DNA from: Pirellula staleyi DSM 6068
Lineage (GTDB): Bacteria; Planctomycetota; Planctomycetia; Pirellulales; Pirellulaceae
Reading direction: 5' to 3'
Length of the DNA: 32,000 bases
Assembly: GCA_000025185.1 (NCBI GenBank)
Contig: CP001848.1
Span: 1,350,001-1,382,000, forward strand
Program-made: the position numbers and the translations under genes
Part shown: one piece after another, positions 17,878 through 31,484 of the stretch
Layout of the letters: every line of letters starts with the position of its first letter
Position numbering within the stretch: position 1 is the first letter of the stretch
Notes under the pieces: generated by a model
What the model was told of the DNA's origin: nothing
The model's database searches: none
What the model saw: the letters and a program-made list of their open reading frames with translations, nothing else

Positions 17878-18469
17878 CAGCCGCCTCGAAGGAGTGTTGC
17901 TCGCGAGTGAATTTGCCCCTGGTGAATCGCCAGGCGCGAGCTTGGGTGATGGGGCGAATTCTAGCGAGCGGGAGTCGCGCGCTGCAACGAAAAAACCAGC
18001 GGCTGAGAAATCGATGCACCAGAAAAACGACTTTAGTAGTTCTACTTTAGTAGTCGTAGTGGTTCGTTGAGACTCTGTCTCACTGATGCCGCGTTGTGGG
18101 AGCCTCGACAGCAGTCGCTTGCACCGGCGATTAGCGACCGCTCGATCCCGGCCATGATCGAAAAAAGGGCGGAAGTTTTCCTGGCTCTGCCTGAGGGGGT
18201 TAAGAGCCCAGGAAATGCGGTGCGGCTGGTGCGGTAACACTTGGGGTGTGCTGACCGTTTGTGGCAGTGAGCGAGACATGGTTTACGGTTAATGGCGTGG
18301 ATGTGGACCCTCTGGGGGCAAAGGTAGTTAGGGTGTGGGTGCAGTATGCGGTAGATGCGGGTAGTCGTATCGCCTGAAAAGGCGCTATCTATCCCACAAA
18401 GGGATGGTTTAGTTGCTTGACGGTGTTCGAACCGCTGATTATTCTCCCCCCCTGCACCACTCTGTACTT

Positions 18470-20767
18470 ATGGGGGATATTGCCGTGCCTCCCGCGCCGT
18501 CCAGGATTACGATTCGACAGCTGATTTCCGCCATGGAATCTGGGTCCCCTCTTGCGCCGCATGCTGTGCTGGGGGTGACTGAAGGTGAGACCTTGCCGGC
18601 GGTGATAGAGCAGGCGTATCGGCTGCGTGTGAGTGAGCTGGCGGGTGTGCGAAGCGAGCTTGGTGAGTCGCGTGTAGGCAAAGTGATGCGCGCGATTTCA
18701 GCCGCTAAGGTTCAGCTCACTTCGGCGCCTGGCTCAGCAGCCGCGGCGGTCGGTTTGCCAGTCAGGGGGGCGGCTCCAAGTGCTGCGCCGCTGCCAGAAC
18801 GCTCGTTTGCGTTGGGAGCTCCGCAAGGTCCTTCTCCACTGGGTAAGCCTGCTCTCTCCTCGGCTGTATCCTCGTCGCCGGAACACTCGTCGCCACTCGA
18901 TACGCTGCGGTTCAGTCCGTTGATGCTGGCGTTTGGGGGTGGTGCTGCGGTCGGTGTCGTCGTGCTGCTGCTGGTTGTGGTGGTGTGGTCGCTGAGTGGT
19001 TCGAAATCGCGCACGCCTGTAGCTGATGCAAACGCTGCGAGTAGCTTGCCGAGCCCCCTGTTTCCCAGTGTTCCGAGTTTGCCTCCTCCTCCGCCGCCCG
19101 TAGTCCCAGAGTTGCCCGTAGTCCCAGAGTTGCCCGTAGTCCCAGAGTTGCCCGTAGTCCCAGAGTTGCCTGTAGTCCCAGAGTTGCCTGTAGTCCCAGA
19201 GTTGAGTCAGCCGCCACCTCCGCAGCCAGCAGTGCCGGATGTGAGTGTGCCGGATGTAAGCACGCCACCACCTTCCGCTTCTTCGCCTGCGGTGAAATTG
19301 CCTCCCCCCCGACCAGCGTTCGGCTTTGGGGGTGGAGGTAGTCTCCCTTCCGACAGCGGCGCGGATGATACGGCAGGCGGTTTCTTTCCGTCGAGCCGTC
19401 CCGCTGGCTCAGAGCCAAAATCCGTTCCGAGTGCTGCCTCGCCCGGCAGCTTTTCGGGGGCTCCCTTTGGTGGTCAGCCTGCGACTCCTGTCGCAGGATC
19501 GTCCCGTCCCGCACTACCAGCCACCTCGAACGGTCCACCCGAGCGTTCGCTCTCCGATTTACTACCGGGTGGAAAGAGTAGTGAGTCAGGAACAGGAACA
19601 TCGAGCGCGAAGTCTCCCGCTGCTGTCGATTACAGCCCCACGCTGCAGTTGCCTCCGACAGGGAAGTCCGAACCGGTTCAACTCTTGGCCGGTGACTTTG
19701 CGAAGAGTGATTTAACGATCGATGGCTCGGCCGCCGAGTTAGATGGCAACTTGGTGTTTGCGATATCGAAGATCGCTGGCTCAGCGCCGCCGAGTTGGCG
19801 CATCGAAACCGTTCCTGGAGCTCCGCCCGTTGCAGCCAGCGGGGCTGATCGAGCCAAAGCAGCAGCGCCGTCGGTTTTCGCGCGGCCCGAATCGACAGGA
19901 CCGACGACCGTAGCGATATGCACGCTCGAATCGCGAGGCATTACGTTTCAGTGGGAGCCCCAAGTGGCGGCAACCACCGCTGGGCAACTCACGAACTGTT
20001 TGATCTATGTCACGACCGATCAGAAGTCGACGGTCTACTCGCTCCGGTCATACATCAATGCGTCGCGTGTTCCGCTCGACCTGTCGAAGTCGCCGCAGCG
20101 GATCGTAGTCCCTCTCGAGCATCTTCCGAAATCAGAACGGATCCGGCTCGAAGTGAGGCCGAAATCAGGTTTCGTCTCCACGCTGGAGATCGAGCCACCG
20201 GAAGGGAAAGTGGGAGTGAATCGTCGTCTGCGGATCGTTCCCAAGGCGGAGTACAACGTCGAGTTTCAGTTTGATTTGAGTTTACTTTCGGGCGAATTGA
20301 ATTTGTTTCATCGTCCATTCTTCTCGCTCGGCAATTCGCAGCGACAAGAGTTCACCACTGAGAAGCTCGAGAGCCTGGTCGCATCGACAAGTCTGAAGAT
20401 TCGTCGCGATATCGACCGCCACGATGAGCTGAAGCGAAGGTTGGGAGCGATTGGCGACGAGATCTCGCAGGCCAACTCGGCACGTGTCACGACGGCGCAG
20501 CGCAATGCGGTGCTGTCGCGTTTATTGCAAGAGCGCAAGTCTTCGATCAGCGGGATCGAGCGTCTCAGCCGATCGATTCCCACCACCCAAGAGGCGCTCG
20601 AGGCACTCGAGAACTACGCCAAGCTGGCCGAGCGACTTCACCTTGTGACGGAGGTGGAGGTGCGCATCACTGCCCTTGGGGAACATGGCGAGATTCCACT
20701 TTGGCTCGGCACGATGCCGGTAACGGTCGCACCCGAAGCGAGTGCCCCACGGAGGTCGGCATCGTAG
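18470..20767 (+). CDS. Hypothetical single-pass membrane protein: small N-terminal cytoplasmic domain, TM, long Pro-rich repeat linker, beta-rich ectodomain, coiled coil
   Basis: ATG at 18470 preferred (MGDIAVPP...). TM LMLAFGGGAAVGVVVLLLVVVVWSL. Six VVPELP repeats. C-terminal half has alternating beta-like pattern, then a heptad-rich segment. No family recognised. Confidence 0.7.
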   Translation: MGDIAVPPAPSRITIRQLISAMESGSPLAPHAVLGVTEGETLPAVIEQAYRLRVSELAGVRSELGESRVGKVMRAISAAKVQLTSAPGSAAAAVGLPVRGAAPSAAPLPERSFALGAPQGPSPLGKPALSSAVSSSPEHSSPLDTLRFSPLMLAFGGGAAVGVVVLLLVVVVWSLSGSKSRTPVADANAASSLPSPLFPSVPSLPPPPPPVVPELPVVPELPVVPELPVVPELPVVPELPVVPELSQPPPPQPAVPDVSVPDVSTPPPSASSPAVKLPPPRPAFGFGGGGSLPSDSGADDTAGGFFPSSRPAGSEPKSVPSAASPGSFSGAPFGGQPATPVAGSSRPALPATSNGPPERSLSDLLPGGKSSESGTGTSSAKSPAAVDYSPTLQLPPTGKSEPVQLLAGDFAKSDLTIDGSAAELDGNLVFAISKIAGSAPPSWRIETVPGAPPVAASGADRAKAAAPSVFARPESTGPTTVAICTLESRGITFQWEPQVAATTAGQLTNCLIYVTTDQKSTVYSLRSYINASRVPLDLSKSPQRIVVPLEHLPKSERIRLEVRPKSGFVSTLEIEPPEGKVGVNRRLRIVPKAEYNVEFQFDLSLLSGELNLFHRPFFSLGNSQRQEFTTEKLESLVASTSLKIRRDIDRHDELKRRLGAIGDEISQANSARVTTAQRNAVLSRLLQERKSSISGIERLSRSIPTTQEALEALENYAKLAERLHLVTEVEVRITALGEHGEIPLWLGTMPVTVAPEASAPRRSAS
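19100..19207 (+). repeat. In-frame 18-bp tandem repeat x6 (gtagtcccagagttgccc; encodes VVPELP), followed by a 15-bp x2 repeat at 19232-19261 (VPDVS)
   Basis: Units at 19100, 19118, 19136 (identical), 19154 and 19172 (c to t at the last base) and 19190 (degenerate end). Read directly from the sequence. Confidence 0.95.
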
Positions 20768-20773
20768 CGCGGG

Positions 20774-21505
20774 ATGAAACGAAATCAGGCGATATCCATG
20801 AGCACTTCAACCTTGAGAACATCGCAAGCCCCCAGGAAGCAGCAAGTGTCGGAACCACGAAAGATTTTGCTAAGGCCGCGTGCTCTGGCGCTGCTGATGA
20901 TGCTTGGAAGCCTGGCGCTGGGAGGCTGTTTCTCCCCGCCTCCGCCAAGCGAGCCGCCGCCGGCTGTCGAGAGCGAGTCCACCGATAGCCCAGCGCCAGC
21001 AAAAGCAGCGGAAGCCGCAACGGATCCAGCTGCTGAAGAGGCTCCGCCAAAGCCTGACAGCGAAACCGCTCCGCCTCCAGCGAGTGCGGGTGCAGAGGAT
21101 CCCGGCGCTGGTCAGCCGCCAGCGGCCAGCGGTGCTTCGAAAAACGACAAGTCGGGTCCCCAGGATCGCCCGAGTGGGATGGGACGCTCGCAAGCTGCTG
21201 CTGGAGATTTCGCGAGTTCGGCAGCTAAGGAGGCTGATAGCAAGCTGAGCCTAGCGGAAAGCGCGCGCTTAGCCGCGCAAATGCGCGCGAAAGCGCGTGA
21301 GCTGCAAGCCACCAATCCCGGCCAGGCGTTCGAGGCGGCACTGCGTGGCTGGCAGCTGACCTCGCGTTTTCCGGACGACCCGGCATGTGCTGCCATGCAT
21401 GGCGAGTTTGGTCGCATGCTCGACCTCCTGGGGACTCAAGCCAACAGCGGCCTAGGTGGTAGCACTCCCCCCTTACGAGCAAACGCCGAAACAATCATCG
21501 AATAG
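20774..21505 (+). CDS. Putative lipoprotein with acidic/Pro-rich low-complexity linker and small helical C-terminal domain
   Basis: Signal peptide ending in the lipobox LALGGC. Starts 6 nt after the stop of the preceding gene. An alternative start at the internal Met (MSTSTL) is possible. Confidence 0.65.
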   Translation: MKRNQAISMSTSTLRTSQAPRKQQVSEPRKILLRPRALALLMMLGSLALGGCFSPPPPSEPPPAVESESTDSPAPAKAAEAATDPAAEEAPPKPDSETAPPPASAGAEDPGAGQPPAASGASKNDKSGPQDRPSGMGRSQAAAGDFASSAAKEADSKLSLAESARLAAQMRAKARELQATNPGQAFEAALRGWQLTSRFPDDPACAAMHGEFGRMLDLLGTQANSGLGGSTPPLRANAETIIE

Positions 21506-21706
21506 CCATCATTATATGATTAGTAGTAAGTATCGATTTGAGATGCGTGAAGCAATGTTTGTGACTAATACCTAAATAAAAAATAACAATAGATTGAAGC
21601 TGCGGAGTGCATTGAGATCAAACTTATATCGCGTTCCTACGATACTCCCCACCGAATCTTCTGCCTGCACTAGCCCACCACCAACTTCCTGCAATAGCGA
21701 CCCACC
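21506..21706 (+). promoter_or_regulatory. AT-rich intergenic region, probable promoter for the GTPase sub-operon
   Basis: The 21506-21640 stretch is far more AT-rich (by eye about 30 % GC) than the about 62 % GC flanks and contains an aaataaaaaataacaa A-tract. It lies directly upstream of 21710. No sigma-factor motif is assigned. Confidence 0.35.
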
Positions 21707-21709
21707 GTG

Positions 21710-23002
21710 ATGTCGACGAAAGCCCCGCGCCAAGATCTACCGCGCAGCGATGACGTGAAAATTCGATTGCGTATCACCTGTCCGCATTGCTGGTCGAACT
21801 TTGCGACCGAAGATGTGCACTGGCTCACCGAGCACGAACTGCTGCGCGGCGATCCGATGCTTGGGCCCGATGCTCAGCAACGATTCTTGCCGACACGTTT
21901 CGACGTCGCCGGAAATGCCATCGATTCGAGCGGCATGACCTGCCAGAGCCTTGCCTGTCCTAAGTGCCATCTCACTTTGCCTCGCGTAATGATTGATATG
22001 GCCCCGGTATTTGTTTCGATCCTGGGAATTCCCTCGTGCGGCAAGTCCTATTTCTTGTCGTCGATGACGTGGCAGATGCGGCGCACTCTGCCACACTACT
22101 TTGCCATCGACTTTAGCGACGCCGATCCCGCCTCGAACGAAATCCTGAATCAGTACGAGCGACAGCAGTTTTTAAACGCTGATTCGCGTGCGATTGTGAA
22201 GCTCGACAAAACCGAAGAGCAAGGATACTGGTACGACGCGGTGCGTTATGGCGATCAGATCGTCAACTATCCGCGTCCTTTTCTCTTCGGGCTGCGACCT
22301 TTGTTTGGGCATCCCAGTTTTGAGAATCGGAGCGATGTCTCGCGCGTTCTCTGCATGTACGACAACGCGGGCGAGTCGTTTCAGCCCGGCAAAGATACAT
22401 CGGCCAACCCCGTCACGCGTCACTTGGCCCGTTCTCAAGCGATGCTGTTTCTATTTGATCCCACGCAAGACCATCGATTTCGCGCAGCGTGTGTCGGTCG
22501 CTCATCCGACCCGCAAATGACCTCCACGCGGGCTCAAGTCTATCGCCAAGATACCGTGCTTCACGAAGCAGCATCACGCGTGCGCAAATACACAGGACTT
22601 AAACACGACGAGCGTCATAATCGACCTTTAATTGTGGTTGTCACGAAATACGATGCTTGGGAACCGCTTCTCCCTGGTTTGTTAGATACACCTCCCTTCT
22701 TGCCGCAAAAGAGTGGTGCGGCTCATGCACTCGATTGGGAGCGTGTACGTGAGACCTCGGCGAAGCTTCGTCACCTCCTTTGGCAGCACTCGCCCGAATT
22801 GGTATCTGGGGCTGAAGCGTTTGCTCAAGAGGTGGTCTATGTGCCCGTCAGTGCCACCGGCTGTGCTCCGGTCACCAATGAGCAAGGAGCAATCGAGGGG
22901 ATGCGCACCGGAGATATCCAGCCGAAGTGGGTCGAGGTGCCGATGCTGGTGGTCCTCGCGCGATGGTCGAAAGGTCTGATTCCTTATAATCGTCGGACTT
23001 AG
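21710..23002 (+). CDS. Zn-ribbon-fused P-loop GTPase (TRAFAC-type, all G motifs present)
   Basis: CPHC...CPKC (nt 21779-21964). G1 GIPSCGKS (22025-22048). G3 DNAG (22361-22372). G4 TKYD (22643-22654). G5 SAT (22850-22858). Confidence 0.85.
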   Translation: MSTKAPRQDLPRSDDVKIRLRITCPHCWSNFATEDVHWLTEHELLRGDPMLGPDAQQRFLPTRFDVAGNAIDSSGMTCQSLACPKCHLTLPRVMIDMAPVFVSILGIPSCGKSYFLSSMTWQMRRTLPHYFAIDFSDADPASNEILNQYERQQFLNADSRAIVKLDKTEEQGYWYDAVRYGDQIVNYPRPFLFGLRPLFGHPSFENRSDVSRVLCMYDNAGESFQPGKDTSANPVTRHLARSQAMLFLFDPTQDHRFRAACVGRSSDPQMTSTRAQVYRQDTVLHEAASRVRKYTGLKHDERHNRPLIVVVTKYDAWEPLLPGLLDTPPFLPQKSGAAHALDWERVRETSAKLRHLLWQHSPELVSGAEAFAQEVVYVPVSATGCAPVTNEQGAIEGMRTGDIQPKWVEVPMLVVLARWSKGLIPYNRRT

Positions 23003-23058
23003 AAGGCGCTACTCACTGACGGTTGTACTTCATTGAATGTTCGGGAGAGGCTTGTTGT

Positions 23059-25593
23059 ATGTCGCAGGAGATTATTTATACATCCGCACCACAAGGCTTA
23101 CGCCCAGGTAGTTTTGGGTTTTGTATTGTGGCGATGACAACCGGAATGCCCACGCCTTTGGCCGAGCGGCTCGAGTCGTTGTCGGGGTATCGCCATGTCT
23201 ATTCCCCTGGCGATCCGCGCGCGGTGAATAATCCTGTCGTCCATTCGCATGTGCAGCTGAAGATCGGTGCTCAAAAGTATTTTGTCCTCTCGCGACTCGC
23301 AGACGCTGGTTTCGACTATTCGCAGCGCACCAACAAGCTGGTGCATCATGTGGCTCTCGAGCCATCAGAGCTGGTTCCGGCGGGACCAGCTTGGGTTCTT
23401 TCGCAGCCCGGATATATGGTCACCTCGTTCAGCGGACAGCCCCATTTGCTTCCGGCGGGACGTCGCACACCAGCGGGCGAGATTCCGCGCACCGTTTGTC
23501 ATCGCTGGGGAGAGTTGACCGGCGATCCAGGTTGGGGTGCGGTGCTGGCTTCGAGCGCGCTCACCGGGGGAGCACTCACGCCTGGTGCGGGACGCCCGGT
23601 CCATCTGATTGTTCCCGAGGGGCTCGATCCCTTGCCGCTGATCGTCGAAGCGCAGTCGCTTCTCCCTTCCCAGCGGCGCTGGGAGGTTTCGTTCTCCACC
23701 TTCTTCACACGCTTGCCCCCCGGCGTCGAGTGCCAGTGGCGCTGTGTCCTGGCGGGAACTCCCGAGGCGACCGCGCTGGCCGGAATGCGTGGCGATTTGG
23801 TGATCGATCTCACGCGTCCTCTCGGTCCTGCTCCCGACACTCCCCTCTCCGCTGCAGCCCGCACTGGCGTGTTTCCAGCCGAGCCTGCTCCAACCACTCG
23901 GGCGATTCCGACGACACAGGCAGCTCCGGTGCAGCTGGCTCGACCGGTGCGCGAGTCGGCTGCGGAGGAACTCCGTTTGGGGCCACCTCCGGCACCCGGC
24001 GGCGCAAGAGCTCGCACCAGCAGCAGCGGCGTGATGATCATCGACGACGGCCCCCCCGAGCTTCCTGGCGAAACGACTCCACCCCCGATGACGAGCCTCC
24101 ACCGACGAAGCGCGCCGTCCGCTGGATTTGGTTGGTCGCATCTGACAGCGGTCGCCATGGTGGCTGCGTTGGTGGGTGTGGTGGTGGGCTATCTTTTCCG
24201 TTCCTCGCAAACCGATCCCGCCCCGATCGCCACCCAAACAGCCGCCCCTGCAATTCCCGCTACCGACAACCAGCCCCCTGCTCCTCCCGCTGCAGCGGCT
24301 CCCGACCCTCAGCCTCCCGCCATGCCTTCACCAGCACCACCCGCTACTCCACCAGTCTCGCCAGTAGGTGAGAAGAATACGGCCAACGCCGAGAATCCGG
24401 CGTCAAAAAGCCCTACTGGCGATACTACTCCTGCGGCAGCAAATGGCGGGACTGCTCAGCCGATGCCCGCTGCAGAGAATCCGCCCACGCCATCAGTTCC
24501 CACGCCTGTCCCTGCACCCCCGGCGGTCGTCGAACTGAAGTACGGCCCCGAACCCCTCGAGTCGATCCTGGCGCTGAAGCATGGATCAGACCCGCGTGAG
24601 ATCAAGCTGGCTAGTTTTCCAAAATCAGACGGGAGCGCAATATCCAAGATTGAGCTTCTGGGCGCACCAAAGTCACTACGCATTGAGAAATCAAAGGATA
24701 ACTCTTGGGTGGTGCAGTTTAACAACGGAACAAAAATCGGGAGTGACATACCAACGGCCGAGTTTACTCAGGTCGAAGAAGGTAGTAGTTTCGCGCTGAT
24801 GGCATCTCAGCGGACGCCTGGAGTAGCATGGAATGATCTATGTGGTAGCGTGATTCAAGTGATTCACGAAAAAGGTCAAGAACATATCCTTTATCTAGTC
24901 AAGCCACATTTAGTTGTTACTAAACAAGGGAAAATATCGCCCTGTTTTGTGGAGTATAACATGCCTTATCTAGAGCTGATGGATAGGTTTGACAAAGAAC
25001 TTTTCTTTGATGTGTCTGATATACACATTGAAACCATTCCGAGTGGCAATTGGAAATCAGCTACGAAGGGCAGATGGCAGCATACATATGTATGTCATAA
25101 TGCGACTGAGATAGACACTCAGGTAGAGGCAGAATTCAGTGGGCAGCCTCGAAAAACAACAAAGATAGCAATTCGCGTGCGATTTCATCAGAAAGATTCA
25201 ACGAAGCTACTCGATGAAAATGCAATTCAGGACATCGGCAATCGGTTATCAAACTACAGGAAAGTATTTCTAGATGAGTGGGAGAAGGCAAAGCTAGACA
25301 GAGATAATGCAGAAAAGGATTTCAATGCTGAAGCAAAGCCAGAAGAGAAAGAGAAGAAGCGACAAAAGCTTGATGTATTGAAAAATAAATTTATCGAGAT
25401 CGATAGCAGTCGCGAACGTTTCGATTCGGATTACCCCAAAATAATTACTACATCAGAGGGACGAGAGGTCATCGCTTCACTTAGTAAAAATGCCTCCGCT
25501 AAGTCAGCTCCTAGAGCTAAGGTAACGATTGGACGTGAGATCAAGACCGAGTCGCAAAGTATTAAGGTGCCTTATTTGTTACTTGTGGATTAG
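23059..25593 (+). CDS. Single-pass membrane protein with GAP1-N-like (GTPase-associated protein 1 N-terminal-like) cytoplasmic domain, Pro-rich linker and low-GC extracytoplasmic C-terminal module
   Basis: ATG at 23059 preceded by gggagagg. The N-terminus MSQEIIYTSAPQGLRPGSFGFCIVAMTTGMP...LSGY resembles the xxYTS..GL..G..GF opening of GAP1-N-type domains; this is from memory and unverified. TM at nt 24130-24198. C-terminal beta-rich domain plus Lys/Glu coiled coil. Confidence 0.75.
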   Translation: MSQEIIYTSAPQGLRPGSFGFCIVAMTTGMPTPLAERLESLSGYRHVYSPGDPRAVNNPVVHSHVQLKIGAQKYFVLSRLADAGFDYSQRTNKLVHHVALEPSELVPAGPAWVLSQPGYMVTSFSGQPHLLPAGRRTPAGEIPRTVCHRWGELTGDPGWGAVLASSALTGGALTPGAGRPVHLIVPEGLDPLPLIVEAQSLLPSQRRWEVSFSTFFTRLPPGVECQWRCVLAGTPEATALAGMRGDLVIDLTRPLGPAPDTPLSAAARTGVFPAEPAPTTRAIPTTQAAPVQLARPVRESAAEELRLGPPPAPGGARARTSSSGVMIIDDGPPELPGETTPPPMTSLHRRSAPSAGFGWSHLTAVAMVAALVGVVVGYLFRSSQTDPAPIATQTAAPAIPATDNQPPAPPAAAAPDPQPPAMPSPAPPATPPVSPVGEKNTANAENPASKSPTGDTTPAAANGGTAQPMPAAENPPTPSVPTPVPAPPAVVELKYGPEPLESILALKHGSDPREIKLASFPKSDGSAISKIELLGAPKSLRIEKSKDNSWVVQFNNGTKIGSDIPTAEFTQVEEGSSFALMASQRTPGVAWNDLCGSVIQVIHEKGQEHILYLVKPHLVVTKQGKISPCFVEYNMPYLELMDRFDKELFFDVSDIHIETIPSGNWKSATKGRWQHTYVCHNATEIDTQVEAEFSGQPRKTTKIAIRVRFHQKDSTKLLDENAIQDIGNRLSNYRKVFLDEWEKAKLDRDNAEKDFNAEAKPEEKEKKRQKLDVLKNKFIEIDSSRERFDSDYPKIITTSEGREVIASLSKNASAKSAPRAKVTIGREIKTESQSIKVPYLLLVD

Positions 25594-25664
25594 CCGTGAC
25601 GTTTGCGATGTGGTGGATGTCACAGGTCACGTAAGATTCAAGTAAATTTGTTAGTGAGTTGGTT

Positions 25665-28628
25665 ATGCTTGATTATCAGCGGATTGTGGAAGAGATTCAG
25701 GCGGCGATTCATTCGCAGGGCACGCTCGATTGGGATTTGCTGCGCGATGCGTCCGCCGAATATGCCGCTGCTTGCGACGAAGTGAACACCCGGCTCGAGC
25801 GGATCAGTAAGCTGCTGCGGCAAGGACTTCGAAGCGAGGCGATTCAGCTCGCCGATTTGGAGCCCCCGCTGCTCGATTCAGCGGCAATCCTCGATTTTCC
25901 CGAGCTTCCCGAGTGGGTTCAGCTGCTGACGATCAACGGCATGGTTCCGCCCCCTGCGATTCGGATCGAAATTGCCAGCGATCTCAATGCGGCCTATGCC
26001 CTGGAAGCGCCGCTGATGGCGCATCTGAAATCGCACCGACTTCTGGCCCTCGCTCGTGCTCCCCTCACTGTCCGCATTCAAACCTTGCGACAGATTCACC
26101 GGGCCGATGCGCATAACCCGATCTGGGCCACTGATCTCACGATCCTAGAAACTGCGCGACAAACCGAGGTCGCCCGGCAGGCTGAAGAGTGCACCACCAG
26201 TCGACACTTGCCAGCGCTCGAGCAACTTTGCCACGAGCTTGCCATGCCCGACTGGCTAGCGCAGCCACGTCGCGACTTCATCGATTCGATTGCCAGGCGC
26301 CGCGATCGTTTGGTGGTCGTACAGGCTCGCGAGAAACTGGAGGCGATCGAAGGGGAACTCGCCAACTGCTATGGCGCGTTCGATGTCGCAGCTGGTCGTG
26401 CAGCGCGCGACGCTTGGAATAGGGAAGCGGCCAAGGCGGGACTCTTGGCCGACGATCCACTGGCTCAAGCGGCAACTCCCGCACTCGCCTGGCTCGCCGA
26501 ACAAGATCGTCGCGAAGCGCGGGATCGCGAGTTCGCAATCGCTGTCGATAACCTCGAGCGGGCACTCGAAGAAGAAAAAGATCGCGCGACACTCACGCGT
26601 CTGTTTCACGCTATAGAACGGCTCGAGCAACGTCCTCCCGATCTCTTGTTGCGGCGCTATCACGAACAGATGCGGCAGTTCGAAACCGATCAGCGGCGCC
26701 GCTTTGTTCTGATCACCTCTGCCACCGTCCTCGCCTTGCTGCTTGTTGCCGGTGGGATCAGCTGGGTGGCAATCCGGGCGAGCGAACACCGCCGCATGCT
26801 CGCGACAGCAGAACAGCTACGTCAGCTGATTGATAGCTCGCAGTGGAAACAGGCGTCTGAGCTTTTGGCGCAGCTGCAAGTCAGCGACCCGCGTATCGCG
26901 CAGGCGACCGAAATTCAGTCGCAAAATGTTCGTCTGCAGGAGCTCGAAAAAGCGGAGTCCGAACGTCGTGCGGCGTTCGAGCAGTATCTGCAGCAGGCAC
27001 GCAGCTCCGATCCCGAGCGCCCCGATCGTCTGGCGCTCTCGGAGGCCAAAAAGGTGGCCATCGGAGCTGCAGAGAAAGCCGACGTTGCTCGACTCGAGTC
27101 CGAGTTTGCCAGTCTCGATCGCGCTCGGCAACAAAAGCGAGATTCCGAGTTCCAAGCTTCGCTGGAAACGATTTTGTTCGGAGTTGAGAAGGTCGAGGCG
27201 ACGCTGGCCGACGATCCGGTTGCGCCAGTCAAGGAGCTCGCGCAGCTGGTTGCTGAGATCGATGCACTTGGGAAAAGTACCGGTGGTGTCTCGACCTCTT
27301 TGATCGCGCAGCTGGCACCACTCAAGCTGCGGCTCACGTCGCTTCAGCAGCAGCGTGCGGCGCGTATGGACGAGTATCGCGCGCTCGAACAGTTGACGAC
27401 GCATATTGGTCAGCCCGAGGCCTACCAAAGTGCGCTGCAGAAGTTTGTCGAGAAGTTTCCGACATCGCCGCTGGCGATAGAGTTTGCACGAACGACAGCC
27501 GAACTGCCGTACTGGGAAGTGCAGGAGCGGTGGCGAAAACTACTTGGACAAAAGGCCTTTCGAAGCTTGCCTAACGTCCAGCCGCTCGAGGCTGCCAAGC
27601 TCCTCGAGGAGGCGAATGAAATTCAGCTGTTTGGTCAGCCATCGCCACTCGCTGAAAAGTTTGATGCGAAGCGAAAGTATCTGCAAGGAATCGCCGACCG
27701 ACTAGACGACGATGGTCAGCCGATTGTGAAACAGCTCGATGAAGTCTTTAAAGATGTGTTCATCACGGGACTTTGGTACGTCGAAGCAACGGGTGGCGAT
27801 CGCTATTACTTGTCAAAAAGTTTCGAGCAGTATCTTGCAAAACCGGGTGAAACGATTGGATTTGAACATATCGTTTCATTTGACTTGCAAACGCTGACGA
27901 AGCGACACCCAAGAAGCGGGATCGCGCGGCATGGTACGGCGCCGCAAGCAGCTTTAGCGAGCGCCGCGCGAACGCATCTGGCGATCGTCACCAACGGCGA
28001 TTGGGAGAAAGGGATGTATGGTCTGCTCCGCGCGACACTCGACGACAGCGAGACCGATCCGCTGCTGAAGTTCATCTTGGTGCAGCGCATTTTGGAGACA
28101 GCCGAGACAGGGAGTCACTCCATTGCCGAAGCGCTGGGGCCTTCCATCGCGCGGGTGAAAGGGGCCGATGTCGATGTCACGGCCAACTGGCTCTTGCCGA
28201 CCGATGCAGCGGCAGCAGCAGCGCGGCTGAAAGCGCGAGCCCTCTTGGGATCGCTTAGCGATCTATCGAGCGAGGCGCGCAAAGCGGCAGAAATTCTGCG
28301 CGCTGATACGAGTCCCATCGAGGTTCCTCCGGAGTGGATTGGCGTGCTCGTTCCGATCGGCGAAGGACGCTGGAAATGCCTCGGAAGTCCGCAAGTAGCT
28401 GTGGGGGAACTCTATGTCATCGATCCGACTGCCGAGAAGTCGGCGGGTGGAATTTGGCAGCGCGTGGGGACTTACGATCGAGCCAAAACGACCTGGCAAA
28501 ACGGAACATCGAACTCGATGGCGGCGGGGCGACCCTTGTACTTGGTGACTCGGGGGCCGGGGGCGCTCAGCTCTCCTGCTGACCAGCCGAGTGAAGTTTC
28601 CAGCCGCCGTTCCGAGCGACTGCAATGA
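25665..28628 (+). CDS. Large all-helical single-pass membrane protein (987 aa): about 345-aa cytoplasmic helical domain, TM, about 615-aa extracytoplasmic helical/coiled-coil domain
   Basis: ATG at 25665 (MLDYQRIVEEI). TM FVLITSATVLALLLVAGGISWVAI at nt 26703-26774. Heptad-rich Ala/Glu/Arg/Gln sequence on both sides. No family recognised. Confidence 0.8.
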   Translation: MLDYQRIVEEIQAAIHSQGTLDWDLLRDASAEYAAACDEVNTRLERISKLLRQGLRSEAIQLADLEPPLLDSAAILDFPELPEWVQLLTINGMVPPPAIRIEIASDLNAAYALEAPLMAHLKSHRLLALARAPLTVRIQTLRQIHRADAHNPIWATDLTILETARQTEVARQAEECTTSRHLPALEQLCHELAMPDWLAQPRRDFIDSIARRRDRLVVVQAREKLEAIEGELANCYGAFDVAAGRAARDAWNREAAKAGLLADDPLAQAATPALAWLAEQDRREARDREFAIAVDNLERALEEEKDRATLTRLFHAIERLEQRPPDLLLRRYHEQMRQFETDQRRRFVLITSATVLALLLVAGGISWVAIRASEHRRMLATAEQLRQLIDSSQWKQASELLAQLQVSDPRIAQATEIQSQNVRLQELEKAESERRAAFEQYLQQARSSDPERPDRLALSEAKKVAIGAAEKADVARLESEFASLDRARQQKRDSEFQASLETILFGVEKVEATLADDPVAPVKELAQLVAEIDALGKSTGGVSTSLIAQLAPLKLRLTSLQQQRAARMDEYRALEQLTTHIGQPEAYQSALQKFVEKFPTSPLAIEFARTTAELPYWEVQERWRKLLGQKAFRSLPNVQPLEAAKLLEEANEIQLFGQPSPLAEKFDAKRKYLQGIADRLDDDGQPIVKQLDEVFKDVFITGLWYVEATGGDRYYLSKSFEQYLAKPGETIGFEHIVSFDLQTLTKRHPRSGIARHGTAPQAALASAARTHLAIVTNGDWEKGMYGLLRATLDDSETDPLLKFILVQRILETAETGSHSIAEALGPSIARVKGADVDVTANWLLPTDAAAAAARLKARALLGSLSDLSSEARKAAEILRADTSPIEVPPEWIGVLVPIGEGRWKCLGSPQVAVGELYVIDPTAEKSAGGIWQRVGTYDRAKTTWQNGTSNSMAAGRPLYLVTRGPGALSSPADQPSEVSSRRSERLQ

Positions 28629-29667
28629 ACGTGGCGAATCGAATGTTTCAGGGGGGCCACTGTTCCCCCTCACCACTCCCCACCGAACCTCCTTCCACCC
28701 CCGACGTGCTCCATTGACCGATCAGTTTTACATTCGAATTCGTGGGCGTGTGCAAGGCCCGTTTGATAGCGAAAAGTTACGTGGACTCGCGCGGCGTGGC
28801 CAGTTCAGCAGGCTCTATGAAGTCTCGCGCGATGGCCAAACATGGCAGCCAGCGAAGGACTTTCCCGAACTCTTCGCGGCACCAGCAGCGCAGGTTGCGC
28901 AGCCAGCAGCAGCGCAAACCACTGCGGCTCCCTCCGCTGCATCGTCGAAGGGGAACTCGGCATCCAGCGGTGGAGGATACAGCTTACAATCCCCCGCGCC
29001 GCAAAACGCAACGAGCGCGGCCACTTGGTACTACGCCTATCAAGGTCGCGAGCAAGGACCGATCGATTTTAACACGCTGGCCAGCATGTTCAGCTCACGG
29101 CAGTTAGCGCCGGAAACTGAGGTCTGGAGTCAGGGGATGATCAACTGGACTCCGGCCCAAAACGTGCCCGGCCTCGTACCGCCACAAGCGCCGACCAAGA
29201 GCAGCATGGGAGTGAGTTCCTATAGCACCGAGAGTGTCCGTAGCGAAACCGAACAGGTCTCGGCCGCGACCATCCGCGCACTGACCGACTCGAGACCTTG
29301 GGTCGCGTTCATTGCGATCATCGGATTCCTCTACGCCCTTCTGACCCTCCTCAGCGGCGTGTTTCAGCTGATCGTTGGAGCAAGGTCGGGCGTATTTCCA
29401 GTCACTGCGAGTGGACTCACGACGATTGTGATGTCACTGGTGATTGCCTTCGGTGCTTGGCTGCTGGTGAGTTTCGGAAGTGCCATTTCGAACGTCGAAC
29501 GCTCGCGCCGTGAGGCGTCTCTCGTTCGGGCTTTGTCGACACTCAAATCCTTTTGGGTTTATATCGGCGTGGTCTTAATTGTCATCCTTACGTTTGTGAT
29601 TCTAGGAGTCATTCTCGTTATTTCAGTCGCAGGGACGATTGCAGGGTCCTTTCCCGAGCTTGATTGA
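28591..29667 (+). CDS. Double GYF_2-domain protein with polytopic membrane C-terminus (true start possibly TTG at 28714)
   Basis: GYF_2 no. 1 FYIRIRGRVQGPFD...GQTWQPAKDFPELF (nt 28723-28875). GYF_2 no. 2 WYYAYQGREQGPID...VWSQGMINWTPAQNVPGL (nt 29026-29175). At least 3-4 hydrophobic helices in the last 130 aa. The GTG at 28591 would overlap the upstream gene by 38 nt. Confidence 0.8.
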   Translation: MKFPAAVPSDCNERGESNVSGGPLFPLTTPHRTSFHPRRAPLTDQFYIRIRGRVQGPFDSEKLRGLARRGQFSRLYEVSRDGQTWQPAKDFPELFAAPAAQVAQPAAAQTTAAPSAASSKGNSASSGGGYSLQSPAPQNATSAATWYYAYQGREQGPIDFNTLASMFSSRQLAPETEVWSQGMINWTPAQNVPGLVPPQAPTKSSMGVSSYSTESVRSETEQVSAATIRALTDSRPWVAFIAIIGFLYALLTLLSGVFQLIVGARSGVFPVTASGLTTIVMSLVIAFGAWLLVSFGSAISNVERSRREASLVRALSTLKSFWVYIGVVLIVILTFVILGVILVISVAGTIAGSFPELD

Positions 29668-29747: not shown

Positions 29748-30638
29748 GTGGCTTCAAGTTATGAGACGGCACTCGCCGCAAAAACGCTTGCCGATCATCC
29801 GGCGCTCTGCTGGTCCCGGATGGACCTCGAGCAGCGGGTCGGATTTCGTGGCGGCCGATTCACAAAAGTGAACAACTGGCTGGCTTTTTTGATCGCGGCG
29901 GTGGCCACCGTTCTCTTCTATACGGTGGTGATTGTTGCCCGGCAATTTCCGTTCACCCATTCGATGCGCGGTCTGCTCGACTCGTTCACCGATCGCGGTC
30001 CAACCCCTTATGCGATCGTCGCGTTTTCCTGGTGGGCGATTGCGATCCTCCTACTGAAGTGGCGGAAGCTTGCCTTTCAAAAACGATCGCTCACCTATGA
30101 CGTGGTCCCTCGCGATCACGATTTTGTCCTTTCCATTCCAACAGCCGACCGTGTAATTGAGCATATGCATTTGGTAGCCGACGATCCCCGTCACTTTGTT
30201 CTTTATAACCGTATGATGATCGCCCTCTCGAACATGAAAAACCTGGGACGAGTCGCCGATCTTGATGAGATCCTCCGTTCGCAAGGGGAGCATGATGAGT
30301 CGTCGATGGAAACAAGCTACTCGCTGGTGCGCGGGCTTCTCTGGGCGATTCCGGTGCTTGGGTTCATCGGCACGGTGCTCGGACTTTCCGAAGCCATTGG
30401 CGGGTTTAGCAATGTCTTGACCACCGCTACCGACATCTCTTTGGTGCTCGATGCACTGAAGGTTGTTACGGCGGGACTCGCGACCGCTTTTGAAACGACA
30501 CTGCAGGCTCTGGTGGCTGCACTCGGCATTCAAATGCTCCTCACCTTTATCAAAAAGGGAGAAGAGGAATTTTTGGATCAGTGCAGCGATTACTGTATGC
30601 GGCGACTTGTGAGTCGTTTGCGTTTGTCCCCGACGTAA
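29748..30638 (+). CDS. MotA/TolQ/ExbB-family proton-channel protein
   Basis: Conserved C-terminal core LWAIPVLGFIGTVLGLSEAIGGF...GLATAFETTLQALVAALGIQMLL (nt 30321-30557), typical of MotA_ExbB. Two N-terminal TM helices precede a cytoplasmic insert. Confidence 0.85.
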   Translation: MASSYETALAAKTLADHPALCWSRMDLEQRVGFRGGRFTKVNNWLAFLIAAVATVLFYTVVIVARQFPFTHSMRGLLDSFTDRGPTPYAIVAFSWWAIAILLLKWRKLAFQKRSLTYDVVPRDHDFVLSIPTADRVIEHMHLVADDPRHFVLYNRMMIALSNMKNLGRVADLDEILRSQGEHDESSMETSYSLVRGLLWAIPVLGFIGTVLGLSEAIGGFSNVLTTATDISLVLDALKVVTAGLATAFETTLQALVAALGIQMLLTFIKKGEEEFLDQCSDYCMRRLVSRLRLSPT

Positions 30639-30653
30639 CGAAAGGATCGTGCG

Positions 30654-31484
30654 ATGGGACGACGTACCGCGCAAGCACCTTTCTCCCTCTTTTCGTTTCA
30701 AGACATCATCACCTCGGTCACCGGGATTGTGGTCCTGATGCTGCTGGTGATGGCGCTGGAACTCGCGAGCCGCAAGTTGCAAGCGCCAGCCGTGCAGCAA
30801 TCGATCACGCGCGAAGATACACGCGCTGCGCTCTCGGCGGCACAGACCAAAATCCAAGAGCTGCAGCGGATGCTCGAGTCGAGCGACTGGAGCGAGCTTG
30901 CCTCACGAACCCCGACCGAGTTTGCTATCGAACAGGAAGTTTTGACGCGGCAGATTCCCCTTCTGAAGTCCGATCTCGCCGCGGCCAAGCGTCGCGTCGC
31001 TGAGCTCGAGCGACAAGAAAAAGCTGCTCACGACCAGTGGAACGCTCGGGGTAAAGACCGCCAGCAGCTAGAACGAATGGAGGCCGAAATCGGGGCCCTC
31101 GAGGCGAAGCTGAAGAAAGTGCAAAAGTCGGGTACGCTGGTCTATCGCGCGGGGCCACGCGAGTCGCGACAGCCGTGGATCATCGAGTGTACGGCCGCTT
31201 CGATTAGCGCCGCTCCTTTGGGGCCGATATCGAAGCCACTGCAGTTTGTTGGGAGCGATTCTCTTTCGCGCATTCGTCAGGTCGAGGCCTGGGCCAAAGG
31301 CTTGTCGCGCAGCGAGGTCTATCTCGTTTTGATGGTGAAACCGGGCGGGGCTGAGACCGCAACCATCCTCGAGGAGAAGCTGCGCGATTTGGGACTCGGT
31401 GTCGGACTCGATCTTATCGGCAGCGATCAGGCGGCGATCGACCCCGAAGAAGGGGCACCAGTCGTCGAGGAGCCGGCTCGATGA
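30654..31484 (+). CDS. ExbD/TolR/MotB-like N-terminal anchor (Asp17 at TM edge) fused to a coiled coil and C-terminal globular domain
   Basis: FSFQDIITSVTGIVVLMLLV has an Asp at the cytoplasmic edge of a single TM (nt 30702-30704), the same arrangement as ExbD D25, TolR D23 and MotB D32. Followed by a heptad-rich segment. Starts 15 nt after the MotA-like gene. Confidence 0.7.
   Translation: MGRRTAQAPFSLFSFQDIITSVTGIVVLMLLVMALELASRKLQAPAVQQSITREDTRAALSAAQTKIQELQRMLESSDWSELASRTPTEFAIEQEVLTRQIPLLKSDLAAAKRRVAELERQEKAAHDQWNARGKDRQQLERMEAEIGALEAKLKKVQKSGTLVYRAGPRESRQPWIIECTAASISAAPLGPISKPLQFVGSDSLSRIRQVEAWAKGLSRSEVYLVLMVKPGGAETATILEEKLRDLGLGVGLDLIGSDQAAIDPEEGAPVVEEPAR

What the first reader, a model, noticed from the sequence alone, without database searches (positions are those of the whole stretch)
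23059..24198. GAP1-N-like domain placed on a membrane anchor
The opening MSQEIIYTSAPQGLRPGSFGFCIVAMTTGMPTPLAERLESLSGYRHVY and the later WEVSFSTFFTRLP resemble what I remember of GAP1-N-type domains from GTPase-associated conflict systems. Here the roughly 350-aa domain is followed by a TM helix (nt 24130-24198) and an extracytoplasmic region, rather than the cytoplasmic GAP1-M/GAP1-C arrangement I recall. That topology would let an external signal gate the GTPase.
Basis: inference. Interest (0 to 1): 0.65.

Follow-up and report, generated by a model that had tools for sequence, protein, structure and literature searches.

The report
Membrane-anchored GAP1 GTPase partner, swappable ectodomain
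This gene is a genuine but already-described type of membrane-anchored partner of a bacterial GTPase switch in planctomycetes; its outward-facing end is swapped wholesale between near-identical strains, which is what an outside-facing recognition surface would be expected to do.

Summary
A single TM helix lies at residues 360-380, in N-in/C-out orientation.

The topology is not new. Kaur et al. 2020 (eLife) describe GAP1-N2 proteins fused to C-terminal TM segments, and planctomycete systems linked to a GYF-pair/TM-rich protein, which is the arrangement here. 117 of 120 homologues carry the TM helix. The order GTPase, GAP1, ~980-aa TM protein, GYF-TM is conserved across Planctomycetota.

Points I did not find in that paper's main text:
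- The extracytoplasmic module (beta domain plus coiled-coil hairpin) has no Pfam family and no clear PDB fold match. It also ends transmembrane Ser/Thr-kinase-domain proteins and the neighbouring 784-aa protein.
- It behaves as a replaceable low-GC cassette. A contig 96-99% identical on both flanks has no DNA similarity across 24567-25652. GC there is 43%, against 64% in the rest of the gene.
- A MotA/ExbB gene follows in about half of the loci.
- The cytoplasmic module has a weak TagF-like fold match.

Verdict: a new member of a known kind. The external-sensing idea is plausible but untested.

The parts
21707..23002 (+). DO-GTPase2-like P-loop GTPase (431 aa) with an N-terminal Cys4 zinc ribbon
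   Evidence: Pfam DO-GTPase2 scores 26.4 bits (cutoff 27), E 6.4e-6. 34 of 39 orthologues hit DO-GTPase2 at E<=1e-3. Invariant residues are C25, C84 and C87 (C28 in >=90%), Walker A G107/G112/K113, Walker B D219-N-A-G-E223 including the family's hallmark Glu, and TKxD K314/D316. It lies directly upstream of GAP1 in 71 of 80 loci.
23059..23442 (+). GAP1-N2 domain (residues 1-128), cytoplasmic
   Evidence: Pfam PF20013, E 2.9e-28. AF2 pLDDT >90 with strand/helix order b-b-a-b-b-b-a.
23515..23817 (+). GAP1-M domain (residues 153-253), cytoplasmic
   Evidence: Pfam PF20014, E 4.1e-14. Invariant W150, D156, W159, R207 and C225. Alternating alpha/beta elements in the AF2 model.
23908..24135 (+). Cytoplasmic juxtamembrane proline-rich segment (residues 284-359), predicted disordered, with a conserved GPPP motif (P309, P310)
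   Evidence: pLDDT <50. P284, P290, P309 and P310 are conserved in >=90% of 108 homologues. Its role as a ligand for the neighbouring GYF domains is inferred from Attia 2024.
24136..24198 (+). Single transmembrane helix (residues 360-380), N-in/C-out
   Evidence: Present in 117 of 120 homologues at residues 320-370.
24199..24566 (+). Extracytoplasmic proline-rich spacer (residues 381-502)
   Evidence: pLDDT <50. The sequence is rich in P, A and T. It is still 96% identical at DNA level to L084.
24567..25652 (+). Hypervariable low-GC ecto-module cassette. It covers GAP1 residues ~503-844 plus 59 nt after the stop codon. Elements: beta domain (residues 514-620), less confident beta region (624-718), coiled-coil hairpin (720-795), terminal beta hairpin (821-843).
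   Evidence: No blastn similarity to L084 although the flanks are 96.3% and 98.6% identical, and the breakpoint is sharp. Coding part 24567-25593 has GC 43.2% against 63.9% for the rest of the gene. AF2 model pLDDT 75.6, pTM 0.65. No PDB fold match better than E 0.016, TM <0.3.
25659..28628 (+). Conserved 989-aa single-TM partner with no Pfam family. It has a conserved ~350-aa cytoplasmic N-terminus, a TM helix at residues 349-367, and a ~620-aa C-terminal part.
   Evidence: Found downstream of GAP1 in 56 of 58 loci. No Pfam or PDB sequence match. 18 invariant residues in 25 orthologues.
28591..29667 (+). Protein with two GYF_2 domains followed by 3-4 TM helices
   Evidence: Pfam GYF_2, E 8.4e-29, two stretches. 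TM peaks at residues 240-343. Present in 46 of 50 loci. Matches the planctomycete subtype in Kaur 2020.
29748..30638 (+). MotA/ExbB/TolQ-family proton-channel protein
   Evidence: Pfam MotA_ExbB, E 5.8e-9. Weak ZorA and TolQ hits. Present within 10.5 kb in 23 of 47 loci.
30654..31484 (+). 276-aa bitopic protein: N-terminal TM with an Asp at its cytoplasmic edge, then coiled coil. A possible ExbD/TolR-like stator partner.
   Evidence: Sequence. No Pfam hit. Co-occurs with MotA in 21 of 47 loci. The ExbD-like reading is inference only.
31481..32000 (+). Start of a second bitopic TM plus coiled-coil protein (about 303 aa in L084), cut off by the window end
   Evidence: Translation. Gene called at the equivalent position in L084 and L001.
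18413..20767 (+). 784-aa bitopic protein: N-terminal cytoplasmic part, TM (residues 173-191), PELPVV x6 proline-rich spacer, and a paralogous copy of the ecto module (residues ~482-763)
   Evidence: An HMM of GAP1-family ectodomains, built without this protein, hits it at E 2.6e-15 (46 bits, bias 0). Its ecto part resembles those of the J-like and kinase proteins. 18-nt tandem repeat x6.1 at 19096-19204. It is conserved only in close relatives.
20774..21505 (+). 243-aa probable lipoprotein (signal peptide ending LGGC)
   Evidence: Hydrophobic N-terminal segment followed by Cys. No Pfam hit. Not conserved outside close relatives.

Best explanation
ORF 23059-25593 encodes a true GAP1-class protein (GAP1-N2 plus GAP1-M). 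It is the dedicated partner of the DO-GTPase2-like GTPase encoded just upstream, and it has the single-pass membrane architecture that is standard for this family in Planctomycetota.

Shown:
- The two cytoplasmic domains, the TM helix and the N-in/C-out orientation.
- The conserved gene order GTPase, GAP1, ~980-aa TM protein, GYF-TM protein, with MotA/ExbB in about half of the loci.
- An extracytoplasmic module that also ends transmembrane Ser/Thr-kinase-domain proteins.
- Replacement of that module as a low-GC cassette between otherwise near-identical loci.

Inferred mechanism:
- The hypervariable ecto module, held away from the membrane on a proline-rich spacer, is the recognition surface for a variable external or periplasmic ligand such as a phage, a neighbouring cell or an envelope component.
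- Binding is relayed through the single TM helix, probably by oligomerisation or repositioning, to the GAP1-N2/M module.
- That module binds the GTPase and sets its nucleotide state or its assembly.
- Output runs through the co-conserved membrane partners: the 989-aa protein, and the GYF protein, which may dock on GAP1's conserved cytoplasmic GPPP segment. Where present, a MotA/ExbB-type proton channel is also involved.
For: Identity:
- Pfam GAP1-N2 at E 2.9e-28 and GAP1-M at E 4.1e-14.
- 243 homologues at E<=1e-3; nearly all of the 120 listed carry both Pfam domains.
- The GTPase motifs are intact and 34 of 39 orthologues hit DO-GTPase2.

Topology.

Synteny:
- GTPase in 71 of 80 loci, 989-aa protein in 56 of 58, GYF in 46 of 50, MotA in 23 of 47.
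- All 80 genome loci come from Planctomycetota, including Pirellulales, Planctomycetales, Gemmataceae, Isosphaeraceae and Phycisphaerae.
- The GTPase and GAP1 genes overlap by a few bases in L002 and L003.

Prior description of this architecture and of the GYF link: Kaur 2020.

Sensor reading:
- The ecto-module profile finds 1376 representative proteins; in all 150 listed the match lies at or near the C-terminus.
- At least 36 of these are Pkinase-TM-module proteins and 16 are J-like-TM-module proteins.
- An HMM of the beta domain alone still hits them at 1e-11 to 1e-20.

Hypervariability:
- The N-terminus is 99.3% identical to P0001 while the ecto part is 30% identical.
- The DNA breakpoint is sharp.
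- At least 8 further pairs have N >=95% and ecto <=60% or undetectable.
- Ecto GC is below N-terminal GC in all 54 orthologues, by a median of 12 points.

GYF and proline-rich precedent: Attia 2024. Conserved P309/P310.
Against: - There is no direct evidence of a GTPase-GAP1 interface, and no multimer model could be run.
- No ligand is known. Foldseek finds no known binding fold for the ecto module.
- No PADLOC defence model hits GAP1, the GTPase, the 989-aa protein or the GYF protein.
- No recognisable toxin or effector is in the operon.
- Phylum-wide conservation with fixed gene order is more typical of a housekeeping machine than of a mobile defence system.
- The set of N-identical, ecto-divergent pairs is enriched by the database's 90% clustering. 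Only the window/L084 DNA comparison is free of that bias.
Confidence: 0.6

Rival explanations
1. It is a housekeeping trans-envelope machine and not a sensor or conflict system. In this reading GAP1's TM helix, proline-rich spacer and C-terminal domain act as a TonB-like periplasm-spanning arm. The arm is energised by the MotA/ExbB channel and its two ExbD-like partners. The GTPase and the GYF protein act as an assembly or polarity switch, as MglA and GltJ do in the Myxococcus Agl-Glt gliding motor.
For: - The syntenic core is phylum-wide, and the cytoplasmic module is ~50% identical across classes.
- A MotA/ExbB gene and two bitopic TM plus coiled-coil proteins sit downstream.
- The TM-Pro-rich-globular layout recurs in GAP1 and in the 784-aa protein.
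- The GYF protein gives a weak hit to GltJ (E 0.011), and GltJ's GYF/linker region is an MglA-GTP-controlled switch.
- No toxin-like effector and no PADLOC hit.
Against: - MotA/ExbB is detected within 10.5 kb in only 23 of 47 loci.
- There is no Pfam TonB_C, ExbD or OmpA hit.
- A structural arm would not be expected to have its distal domain replaced wholesale between 97-99% identical strains while every neighbouring gene stays conserved.
- The same module ends signalling kinases.
Confidence: 0.22
2. The ecto module is an output and not an input. It would be a displayed adhesin or kin/self-recognition surface whose exposure or clustering is controlled from inside by the GTPase-GAP1 switch (inside-out signalling). 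Its hypervariability would then reflect greenbeard-type or immune-evasion polymorphism.
For: - Cassette-like replacement and low GC resemble polymorphic surface loci.
- Kaur 2020 report that GAP1-N2 systems associate with aggregate-forming or multicellular bacteria (Table 1).
- The coiled-coil hairpin could mediate oligomerisation.
Against: - The module is fused to kinase-domain proteins in the classic receptor orientation.
- No adhesin-type fold or repeat was found.
- Nothing shows that the module reaches the cell surface beyond the periplasm.
Confidence: 0.13
3. One reading: the membrane anchor is an unusual rearrangement of a normally cytoplasmic GAP1 (N-M-C) protein, and so a novel topology.
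For: No GAP1-C-like third cytoplasmic domain is detected.
Against: - 117 of 120 homologues have the TM helix at the same position.
- GAP1-M is present.
- The TM-fused form and the planctomycete GYF-linked subtype are described in Kaur 2020.
Confidence: 0.03

Closest known systems
GAP1-N2-type GTPase-centric (DO-GTPase) systems, planctomycete GYF-linked subtype (Kaur, Burroughs, Iyer, Aravind 2020, eLife 9:e52696)
   Same: - GAP1-N2 plus GAP1-M protein directly downstream of a ZnR-bearing DO-GTPase with a Walker-B Glu.
- GAP1 fused to a C-terminal TM segment.
- An adjacent gene for a GYF pair fused to a TM-rich region.
- Planctomycete host.
- A variable, non-enzymatic module attached to the constant GAP1 part.
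   Different: - No Pfam fn3 or cadherin domain, and Foldseek finds no Ig-like match for the ecto module.
- There is only one GTPase gene.
- The GTPase scores just under the Pfam DO-GTPase2 cutoff.
- The constant ~980-aa TM partner, the MotA/ExbB link (0 mentions in the main text) and the sharing of the ecto module with Ser/Thr kinases were not found in the main text I searched. The paper's figures and supplementary tables were not examined.
TagF (type VI secretion accessory protein; PDB 9t0n)
   Same: It is the best Foldseek PDB match of the full-length model (E 3.3e-3, probability 0.98, 311 aligned columns). The aligned length fits the two-domain cytoplasmic GAP1-N2/M module (the table gives no query coordinates). 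Weaker matches go to PAS/LOV domains and to SEA/GATOR complex subunits. The GAP1-N2 strand order b-b-a-b-b-b-a is, from my own knowledge, longin-like, and those complexes carry longin/roadblock domains.
   Different: - The TM-score is only 0.38 (normalised to the target) and rmsd is 8.3 A.
- There is no sequence-level link.
- There are no T6SS genes in the window.
- I found no literature tying GAP1 to TagF, longin or DENN folds.
This is a lead and not evidence of membership.
Bacterial transmembrane (receptor-type) Ser/Thr protein kinases of Planctomycetota
   Same: They carry the same C-terminal extracytoplasmic module after a single TM helix. The layout is therefore the same: a cytoplasmic signalling head, a TM helix, a spacer and the ecto module.
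   Different: The cytoplasmic head here is GAP1-N2/M, working with a separate GTPase, and not a kinase domain.
TonB-ExbB-ExbD and Agl-Glt/MglA-GltJ systems
   Same: - An N-terminal TM anchor, a proline-rich periplasmic spacer and a distal domain.
- A neighbouring MotA/ExbB-family gene.
- A GYF-domain membrane protein and a small-GTPase-type switch, as with GltJ and MglA.
   Different: - No TonB_C, ExbD or Glt family hits; the only one is a GltJ match at E 0.011, far below its cutoff.
- The GTPase is of the DO-GTPase type and not the MglA/Ras-like type.
- MotA is present in only about half of the loci.

Membership tests
GAP1 (GTPase-associated protein 1), GAP1-N2 subtype | N-terminal GAP1-N2 domain | tested here: met
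   Pfam PF20013, E 2.9e-28, 99.1 bits against cutoff 24, profile positions 1-130 of 139.
GAP1 (GTPase-associated protein 1), GAP1-N2 subtype | GAP1-M middle domain | tested here: met
   Pfam PF20014, E 4.1e-14, 53.1 bits against cutoff 24, profile positions 5-101 of 101.
GAP1 (GTPase-associated protein 1), GAP1-N2 subtype | Third globular GAP1-C domain | tested here: not met
   No further Pfam hit at E<=0.1. Residues 284-359 are predicted disordered and are followed by the TM helix. Kaur 2020 accept TM-fused GAP1-N2 forms as members, so this does not exclude membership.
GAP1 (GTPase-associated protein 1), GAP1-N2 subtype | Encoded directly downstream of a DO-GTPase | tested here: met
   The GTPase gene ends at 23002, 56 nt before the GAP1 start. 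The same order holds in 71 of 80 loci.
DO-GTPase2 (neighbouring gene 21707-23002) | Profile match, TRAFAC-type P-loop with a conserved Glu in Walker B, and an N-terminal zinc ribbon | tested here: inconclusive
   The Pfam score of 26.4 bits is just under the cutoff of 27. 34 of 39 orthologues match at E<=1e-3, best 1e-8. Walker A, DNAGE and TKxD are invariant and a Cys4 ribbon is present. It is probably a divergent subfamily.
GAP1-N2-type system (Kaur 2020) | Accompanying protein with rapidly evolving FNIII repeats | tested here: not met
   No fn3 hit in any of the eight cluster proteins scanned. The ecto-module model has no Ig/FNIII match in the PDB. The beta-rich ecto module of GAP1 and of the 784-aa protein may be the functional counterpart, but this is inference.
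GAP1-N2-type system, planctomycete subtype (Kaur 2020) | [quoted passage not shown] | tested here: met
   28591-29667 has GYF_2 twice (E 8.4e-29) plus 3-4 TM peaks. Present in 46 of 50 loci.
TagF / longin-type GTPase-regulator folds | Clear structural superposition and/or a sequence-profile link | tested here: inconclusive
   Foldseek probability 0.98 but TM-score 0.38. No sequence link.
TonB | TonB C-terminal domain, with an ExbD partner | tested here: not met
   No TonB_C or ExbD Pfam hit. Only the general layout and a MotA/ExbB neighbour are shared.
Known anti-phage defence systems (PADLOC-DB 2.0) | Match to any defence-system protein model | tested here: not met
   No hit for GAP1, the GTPase, the 989-aa, GYF, 784-aa or 243-aa proteins. 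MotA gives a weak ZorA hit, E 9.2e-5.

The most novel reading that the evidence does not exclude
The ecto module would be an undescribed, phylum-wide family of exchangeable recognition cassettes in Planctomycetota. Low-GC, hypervariable versions would be plugged by recombination onto at least three different cytoplasmic signalling heads: GAP1/DO-GTPase, Ser/Thr-kinase domains, and J-like domains. That would give each strain a private repertoire of envelope receptors for phages, competitors or kin. The GAP1 branch would couple this recognition to a GTPase switch and, in many genomes, to a proton-driven MotA/ExbB stator.
Probability: 0.3. Interest if true: 0.75.

Novelty: new member of a known kind. 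Interest (0 to 1): 0.42.

Why it matters
The finding as stated does not change what is known. A membrane-anchored GAP1-N2 protein next to a DO-GTPase and a GYF protein in a planctomycete was catalogued computationally in 2020.

No DO-GTPase/GAP1 system appears to have been studied experimentally in the literature I could search. This locus offers a concrete way in:
- Nature has already done the domain-swap experiment. Identical cytoplasmic machinery carries unrelated ectodomains in near-identical strains.
- The same ectodomain family sits on receptor-type kinases.

If the ecto module is a recognition cassette, it would be a handle for asking what these 'conflict systems' actually sense. It would also help to settle whether they are immune-like devices or envelope machines in a phylum whose cell biology is poorly understood.

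Tried and rejected
- BLASTP of the GAP1 ectodomain against the C-terminus of the 784-aa protein gave nothing (E 0.41). The relationship only appeared with a family profile.
- The search for homologous proteins with the ectodomain alone returned only the window's own fragment. This is a word-index limitation, because P0001 scores 170-206 bits locally.
- Alignment A2 (ecto fragment against full-length homologues) was misaligned to the N-terminal domains and was discarded.
- PDB sequence searches with GAP1, with the A1 profile, with the GTPase and with the 989-aa family profile gave only low-complexity, coiled-coil or chance hits.
- Foldseek of the ecto model found no credible fold neighbour (best E 0.016, TM <0.3). 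I therefore reject the cadherin and FNIII labels for this protein.
- PADLOC gave no hit for the core genes.
- Literature searches for a TagF/DENN/longin link gave nothing usable. The 'DENN' hits were the author name Dennis. The longin-like reading therefore rests only on the model's strand order and weak Foldseek hits.
- No direct repeats, and only two short imperfect inverted repeats, lie near the cassette, so no recombination site is evident.
- A diversity-generating retroelement is unlikely. I saw no reverse-transcriptase hit in the ORFs scanned (not every ORF was), and the divergent stretch (about 1.1 kb) is, from my own knowledge, far longer than a typical retroelement variable region.
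- The window's own Ser/Thr kinase (7195-10080) does not carry the ecto module.
Full report
**Observation**

The window carries a long + strand ORF (TTG 23023 / ATG 23059 to 25593). The ATG at 23059 opens MSQEIIYTSAP, which is the start of the family consensus MSQELIYTSAP in 108 aligned homologues. I take 23059 as the start, giving 844 aa.

Pfam gives two significant domains: GAP1-N2 (PF20013, E 2.9e-28, residues 1-128) and GAP1-M (PF20014, E 4.1e-14, residues 153-253).

A full-length AlphaFold2 model built on the 108-sequence alignment shows the following:
- Residues 1-275 are compact, with pLDDT >90.
- Residues 284-359 are predicted disordered and are proline-rich.
- Residues 360-378 form a helix that coincides with the only strong hydrophobic peak (362-380).
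- Residues 377-511 are again predicted disordered and proline-rich.
- A structured C-terminal part follows.

Across 113 homologues the 15 residues before the helix carry on average 4.0 Lys+Arg, against 1.8 after it. The N side exceeds the C side in 91 cases and the reverse holds in 6. The orientation is therefore N-in/C-out, as expected if the N-terminal module meets a cytoplasmic GTPase.

**Surroundings**

The gene immediately upstream (21707-23002) encodes a 431-aa P-loop protein.
- It matches Pfam DO-GTPase2 just under the curated cutoff (26.4 against 27 bits).
- 34 of 39 orthologues from related loci match the same family at E<=1e-3.
- In the orthologue alignment these residues are invariant: C25, C84 and C87 of a Cys4 ribbon (C28 is in >=90%), Walker A (G107, G112, K113), the Walker B stretch D219-N-A-G-E223 with the glutamate that Kaur et al. 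name as the family hallmark, and K314/D316 of a TKxD motif.

Downstream lie:
- a 989-aa single-TM protein without any Pfam or PDB sequence match;
- a protein with two GYF_2 domains followed by 3-4 TM helices;
- a MotA/ExbB-family protein;
- two bitopic TM plus coiled-coil proteins.

Upstream of the GTPase are a probable lipoprotein and a 784-aa bitopic protein.

**Relatives**

The protein search returned 243 homologues. The 120 listed are mostly 750-1000 aa, nearly all carry both Pfam domains, and those that are named come from Pirellulales, Thermoguttaceae and Planctomicrobium. 117 of the 120 have a hydrophobic helix at residues 320-370.

A scan of one genome per species found at least 344 relatives. 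The best 80 loci are all Planctomycetota, from Pirellulales, Planctomycetales, Gemmataceae, Isosphaeraceae, and Tepidisphaerales and Phycisphaerales.

In these loci plus three contigs found by protein identity, gene order is strongly conserved:
- GTPase upstream in 71 of 80;
- the 989-aa protein's homologue downstream in 56 of 58;
- a GYF protein in 46 of 50;
- MotA/ExbB within 10.5 kb in 23 of 47.

**Comparison with the literature**

Kaur, Burroughs, Iyer and Aravind (eLife 2020) defined GAP1, its N1/N2, M and C domains, and the DO-GTPases. For GAP1-N2 systems they state three things:
[quoted passage not shown] That is the arrangement in this window. I found no later paper on DO-GTPase or GAP1 in the searchable library.

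**The cytoplasmic module**

Foldseek of the full-length model against the PDB gives TagF of the type VI secretion system (9t0n) as the top hit. The values are E 3.3e-3, probability 0.98, 311 aligned columns, TM-score 0.38 and rmsd 8.3 A. It is followed by PAS/LOV domains and by subunits of the SEA/GATOR complexes.

The strand/helix order of GAP1-N2 is b-b-a-b-b-b-a. From my own knowledge this is the longin order, and longin/roadblock domains are common platforms for GTPase regulators.

This is a lead only. There is no sequence-level link, and I found no literature on it.

**The extracytoplasmic module**

A separate model of residues 500-844 (pLDDT 75.6, pTM 0.65) shows:
- a beta-rich domain;
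- a second, less confident beta region;
- a long antiparallel coiled-coil hairpin;
- a terminal beta hairpin.

Foldseek finds nothing credible in the PDB (best E 0.016, TM <0.3), and Pfam finds nothing. I therefore do not label it FNIII or cadherin.

Within the family the module is recognisable by a motif of the form LxLiGg ... W ... iAxF ... LxFxW ... LrNCxL ... LRkP and by a terminal hYRvY...V.L hairpin.

A profile of GAP1 ectodomains built without the neighbouring gene hits the C-terminus of the 784-aa protein (residues 482-763) at E 2.6e-15. The operon therefore carries two copies of the module on different cytoplasmic heads.

Searched against 1.84 billion representative proteins, the module profile finds 1376 proteins at E<=1e-3 and 510 at E<=1e-10. 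In all 150 listed the match lies at or near the C-terminus. Among the best 150:
- 29 are GAP1-N2/M proteins.
- At least 36 have a Pfam protein-kinase domain, then a TM helix, then the module (36 of the 42 non-GAP1 hits of 820 aa or more).
- 16 start with an FDPYHKWLGIPP...YRLLGI motif that resembles a J domain without HPD, then a TM helix, then the module. Pfam does not detect that N-terminal motif.

An HMM restricted to the beta domain, with no coiled coil, still hits these proteins at 1e-11 to 1e-20 with zero bias. The match is therefore not a coiled-coil artefact. Sharing an ectodomain with receptor-type kinases is the best evidence here that the module is a sensing or recognition surface.

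**Hypervariability**

The closest homologue, P0001, is 99.3% identical over residues 1-275 but only 30% identical over the ecto module. At DNA level its contig (L084) compares with the window as follows:
- 96.3% identical over window 21635-24566;
- 98.6% identical over 25653-32000;
- no detectable similarity across 24567-25652.

The breakpoint is sharp. It falls right after the codons for YGPEPLESI.

The coding part of the replaced segment (24567-25593) has 43.2% GC, against 63.9% for the rest of the gene and 57.6% for the window. The unrelated cassette in L084 is also low, at 44.0%.

This pattern is general. In 54 orthologues the ecto region always has lower GC than the N-terminal region. The median gap is 12 points, or 13.5 points at third codon positions. 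The largest is 72.8% against 45.3% in a Singulisphaera genome.

At least eight further pairs of proteins combine >=95% identical N-termini with <=60% identical or undetectable ectodomains. That count is inflated by the database's 90% clustering, which hides pairs that are similar throughout.

No flanking repeats explain the exchange.

I read this as recurrent cassette replacement, or extreme diversification, of an exposed recognition surface. The constant cytoplasmic machinery and all the neighbouring genes stay conserved. The general idea of a constant GAP1 joined to a rapidly varying non-enzymatic module is in Kaur 2020 (discussion passage). I did not find the low-GC cassette behaviour, the link to kinases or the MotA/ExbB link in that paper's main text. 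Its figures and supplementary tables were not examined.

**Mechanism**

Shown:
- domain identities and topology;
- conserved gene order, with the GTPase and GAP1 genes overlapping by a few bases in some genomes;
- intact GTPase motifs;
- module sharing and cassette replacement.

Inferred:
- The ecto module binds a variable external or periplasmic ligand.
- The signal crosses the membrane through the single helix to GAP1-N2/M.
- GAP1-N2/M engages the GTPase.
- Output goes through the 989-aa protein and the GYF protein.

A specific, testable inference concerns the GYF protein. Its cytoplasmic GYF domains may bind the conserved GPPP motif in GAP1's juxtamembrane segment (P309 and P310 in >=90% of homologues). 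Bacterial GYF domains bind proline-rich sequences in the MglA-controlled GltJ switch (Attia 2024).

The main rival is that the cluster is a housekeeping, proton-driven trans-envelope machine of the TonB or Agl-Glt kind.
- For: phylum-wide synteny, the MotA/ExbB link, and the lack of any toxin or PADLOC hit.
- Against: the wholesale replacement of one distal domain between near-identical strains, and the absence of MotA in half of the loci.

I cannot decide between 'conflict system' and 'envelope machine' with these tools.

**Verdict**

The claimed novelty of the topology is not supported.

The item is a new member of a known kind. Its interest comes mainly from the side results on the ecto module.

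Noticed in passing
window 24567-25652 (compare L084 2927-4017): The last ~340 codons of the GAP1 gene plus 59 nt of spacer form a replaced low-GC segment. The coding part (24567-25593) is 43% GC against 64% for the rest of the gene. It has no DNA similarity to a contig that is 96-99% identical on both sides. The GC drop in the ecto region holds in all 54 orthologues examined.
   Followed up: yes
window 18413-20767: A 784-aa bitopic protein carries a paralogous copy of the GAP1 ecto module (residues ~482-763). Its periplasmic spacer is an 18-nt tandem repeat x6.1 (19096-19204, PELPVV). Its N-terminus loosely resembles the HPD-less J-like motif of other module-bearing proteins, but Pfam finds nothing there. 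It is conserved only in close relatives.
   Followed up: partly
window 29748-32000; also L001, L002, L003, L084: A MotA/ExbB-family gene follows the GYF gene in about half of the related loci. Two bitopic proteins come after it, each with a TM helix bearing an Asp at its cytoplasmic edge and then a coiled coil. This could be a 5:2-type proton-driven stator. MotA and ExbB are not mentioned in the main text of Kaur 2020.
   Followed up: partly
proteins P0137, P0170, P0187, P0219 and others (one search hits): Many planctomycete transmembrane proteins with a Pfam protein-kinase domain end in the same Pfam-less ecto module. In their consensus the catalytic-loop region reads HGxLxPxNL where kinases normally (from my own knowledge) have HRDxKPxN. 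Some may therefore be pseudokinases.
   Followed up: partly
window 23059-23883 (GAP1 residues 1-275): The best PDB fold match of the full-length model is T6SS TagF (9t0n); its 311 aligned columns fit this two-domain cytoplasmic module. Weaker PAS/LOV and SEA/GATOR-subunit matches follow. GAP1-N2 may be a longin-like GTPase-regulator fold, which I did not find stated in the literature searched.
   Followed up: partly
window 25659-28628: A 989-aa single-TM protein with a strongly conserved ~350-aa cytoplasmic N-terminus (invariant G56, E60, R127, R139, D150, W156, D159 and others). It is present next to GAP1 in 56 of 58 loci and has no Pfam family. It is an uncharacterised constant component of the system.
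   Followed up: partly
window 7195-13161 (- strand): Two large signalling genes lie upstream. One is a 961-aa Ser/Thr kinase with a weak N-terminal zinc-ribbon hit (E 0.003, below the Pfam cutoff; 7195-10080). The other is a 963-aa NACHT-family STAND NTPase with a weak TPR hit (below cutoff; 10270-13161). The kinase does not carry the ecto module.
   Followed up: partly
window 13361-18279 (- strand): A redox/flavin cluster: a 718-aa poly-ferredoxin (multiple 4Fe-4S domains), a 504-aa protein with an FMN_bind domain and weak TPR hits, and an ApbE flavin-transferase homologue. ApbE is also the upstream neighbour in the related contig L001.
   Followed up: no
window 1-6662: Unrelated genes at the left end: a phosphodiesterase/metalloenzyme fragment, a Mg-chelatase ChlI/ComM-like ATPase (1435-3057), a HIRAN-domain protein (3090-4583), a DNA-alkylation-repair protein (- strand) and a LysR regulator. 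GC is lower here, at about 0.50-0.52 over 1001-5000.
   Followed up: no
L003 3322-8339 (- strand): In one genome (GCA_021651095) a second GAP1-N2/M paralogue (800 aa) sits next to a WD40 beta-propeller protein, only 2 kb from the main cluster. Some genomes therefore carry more than one GAP1-N2 gene.
   Followed up: no
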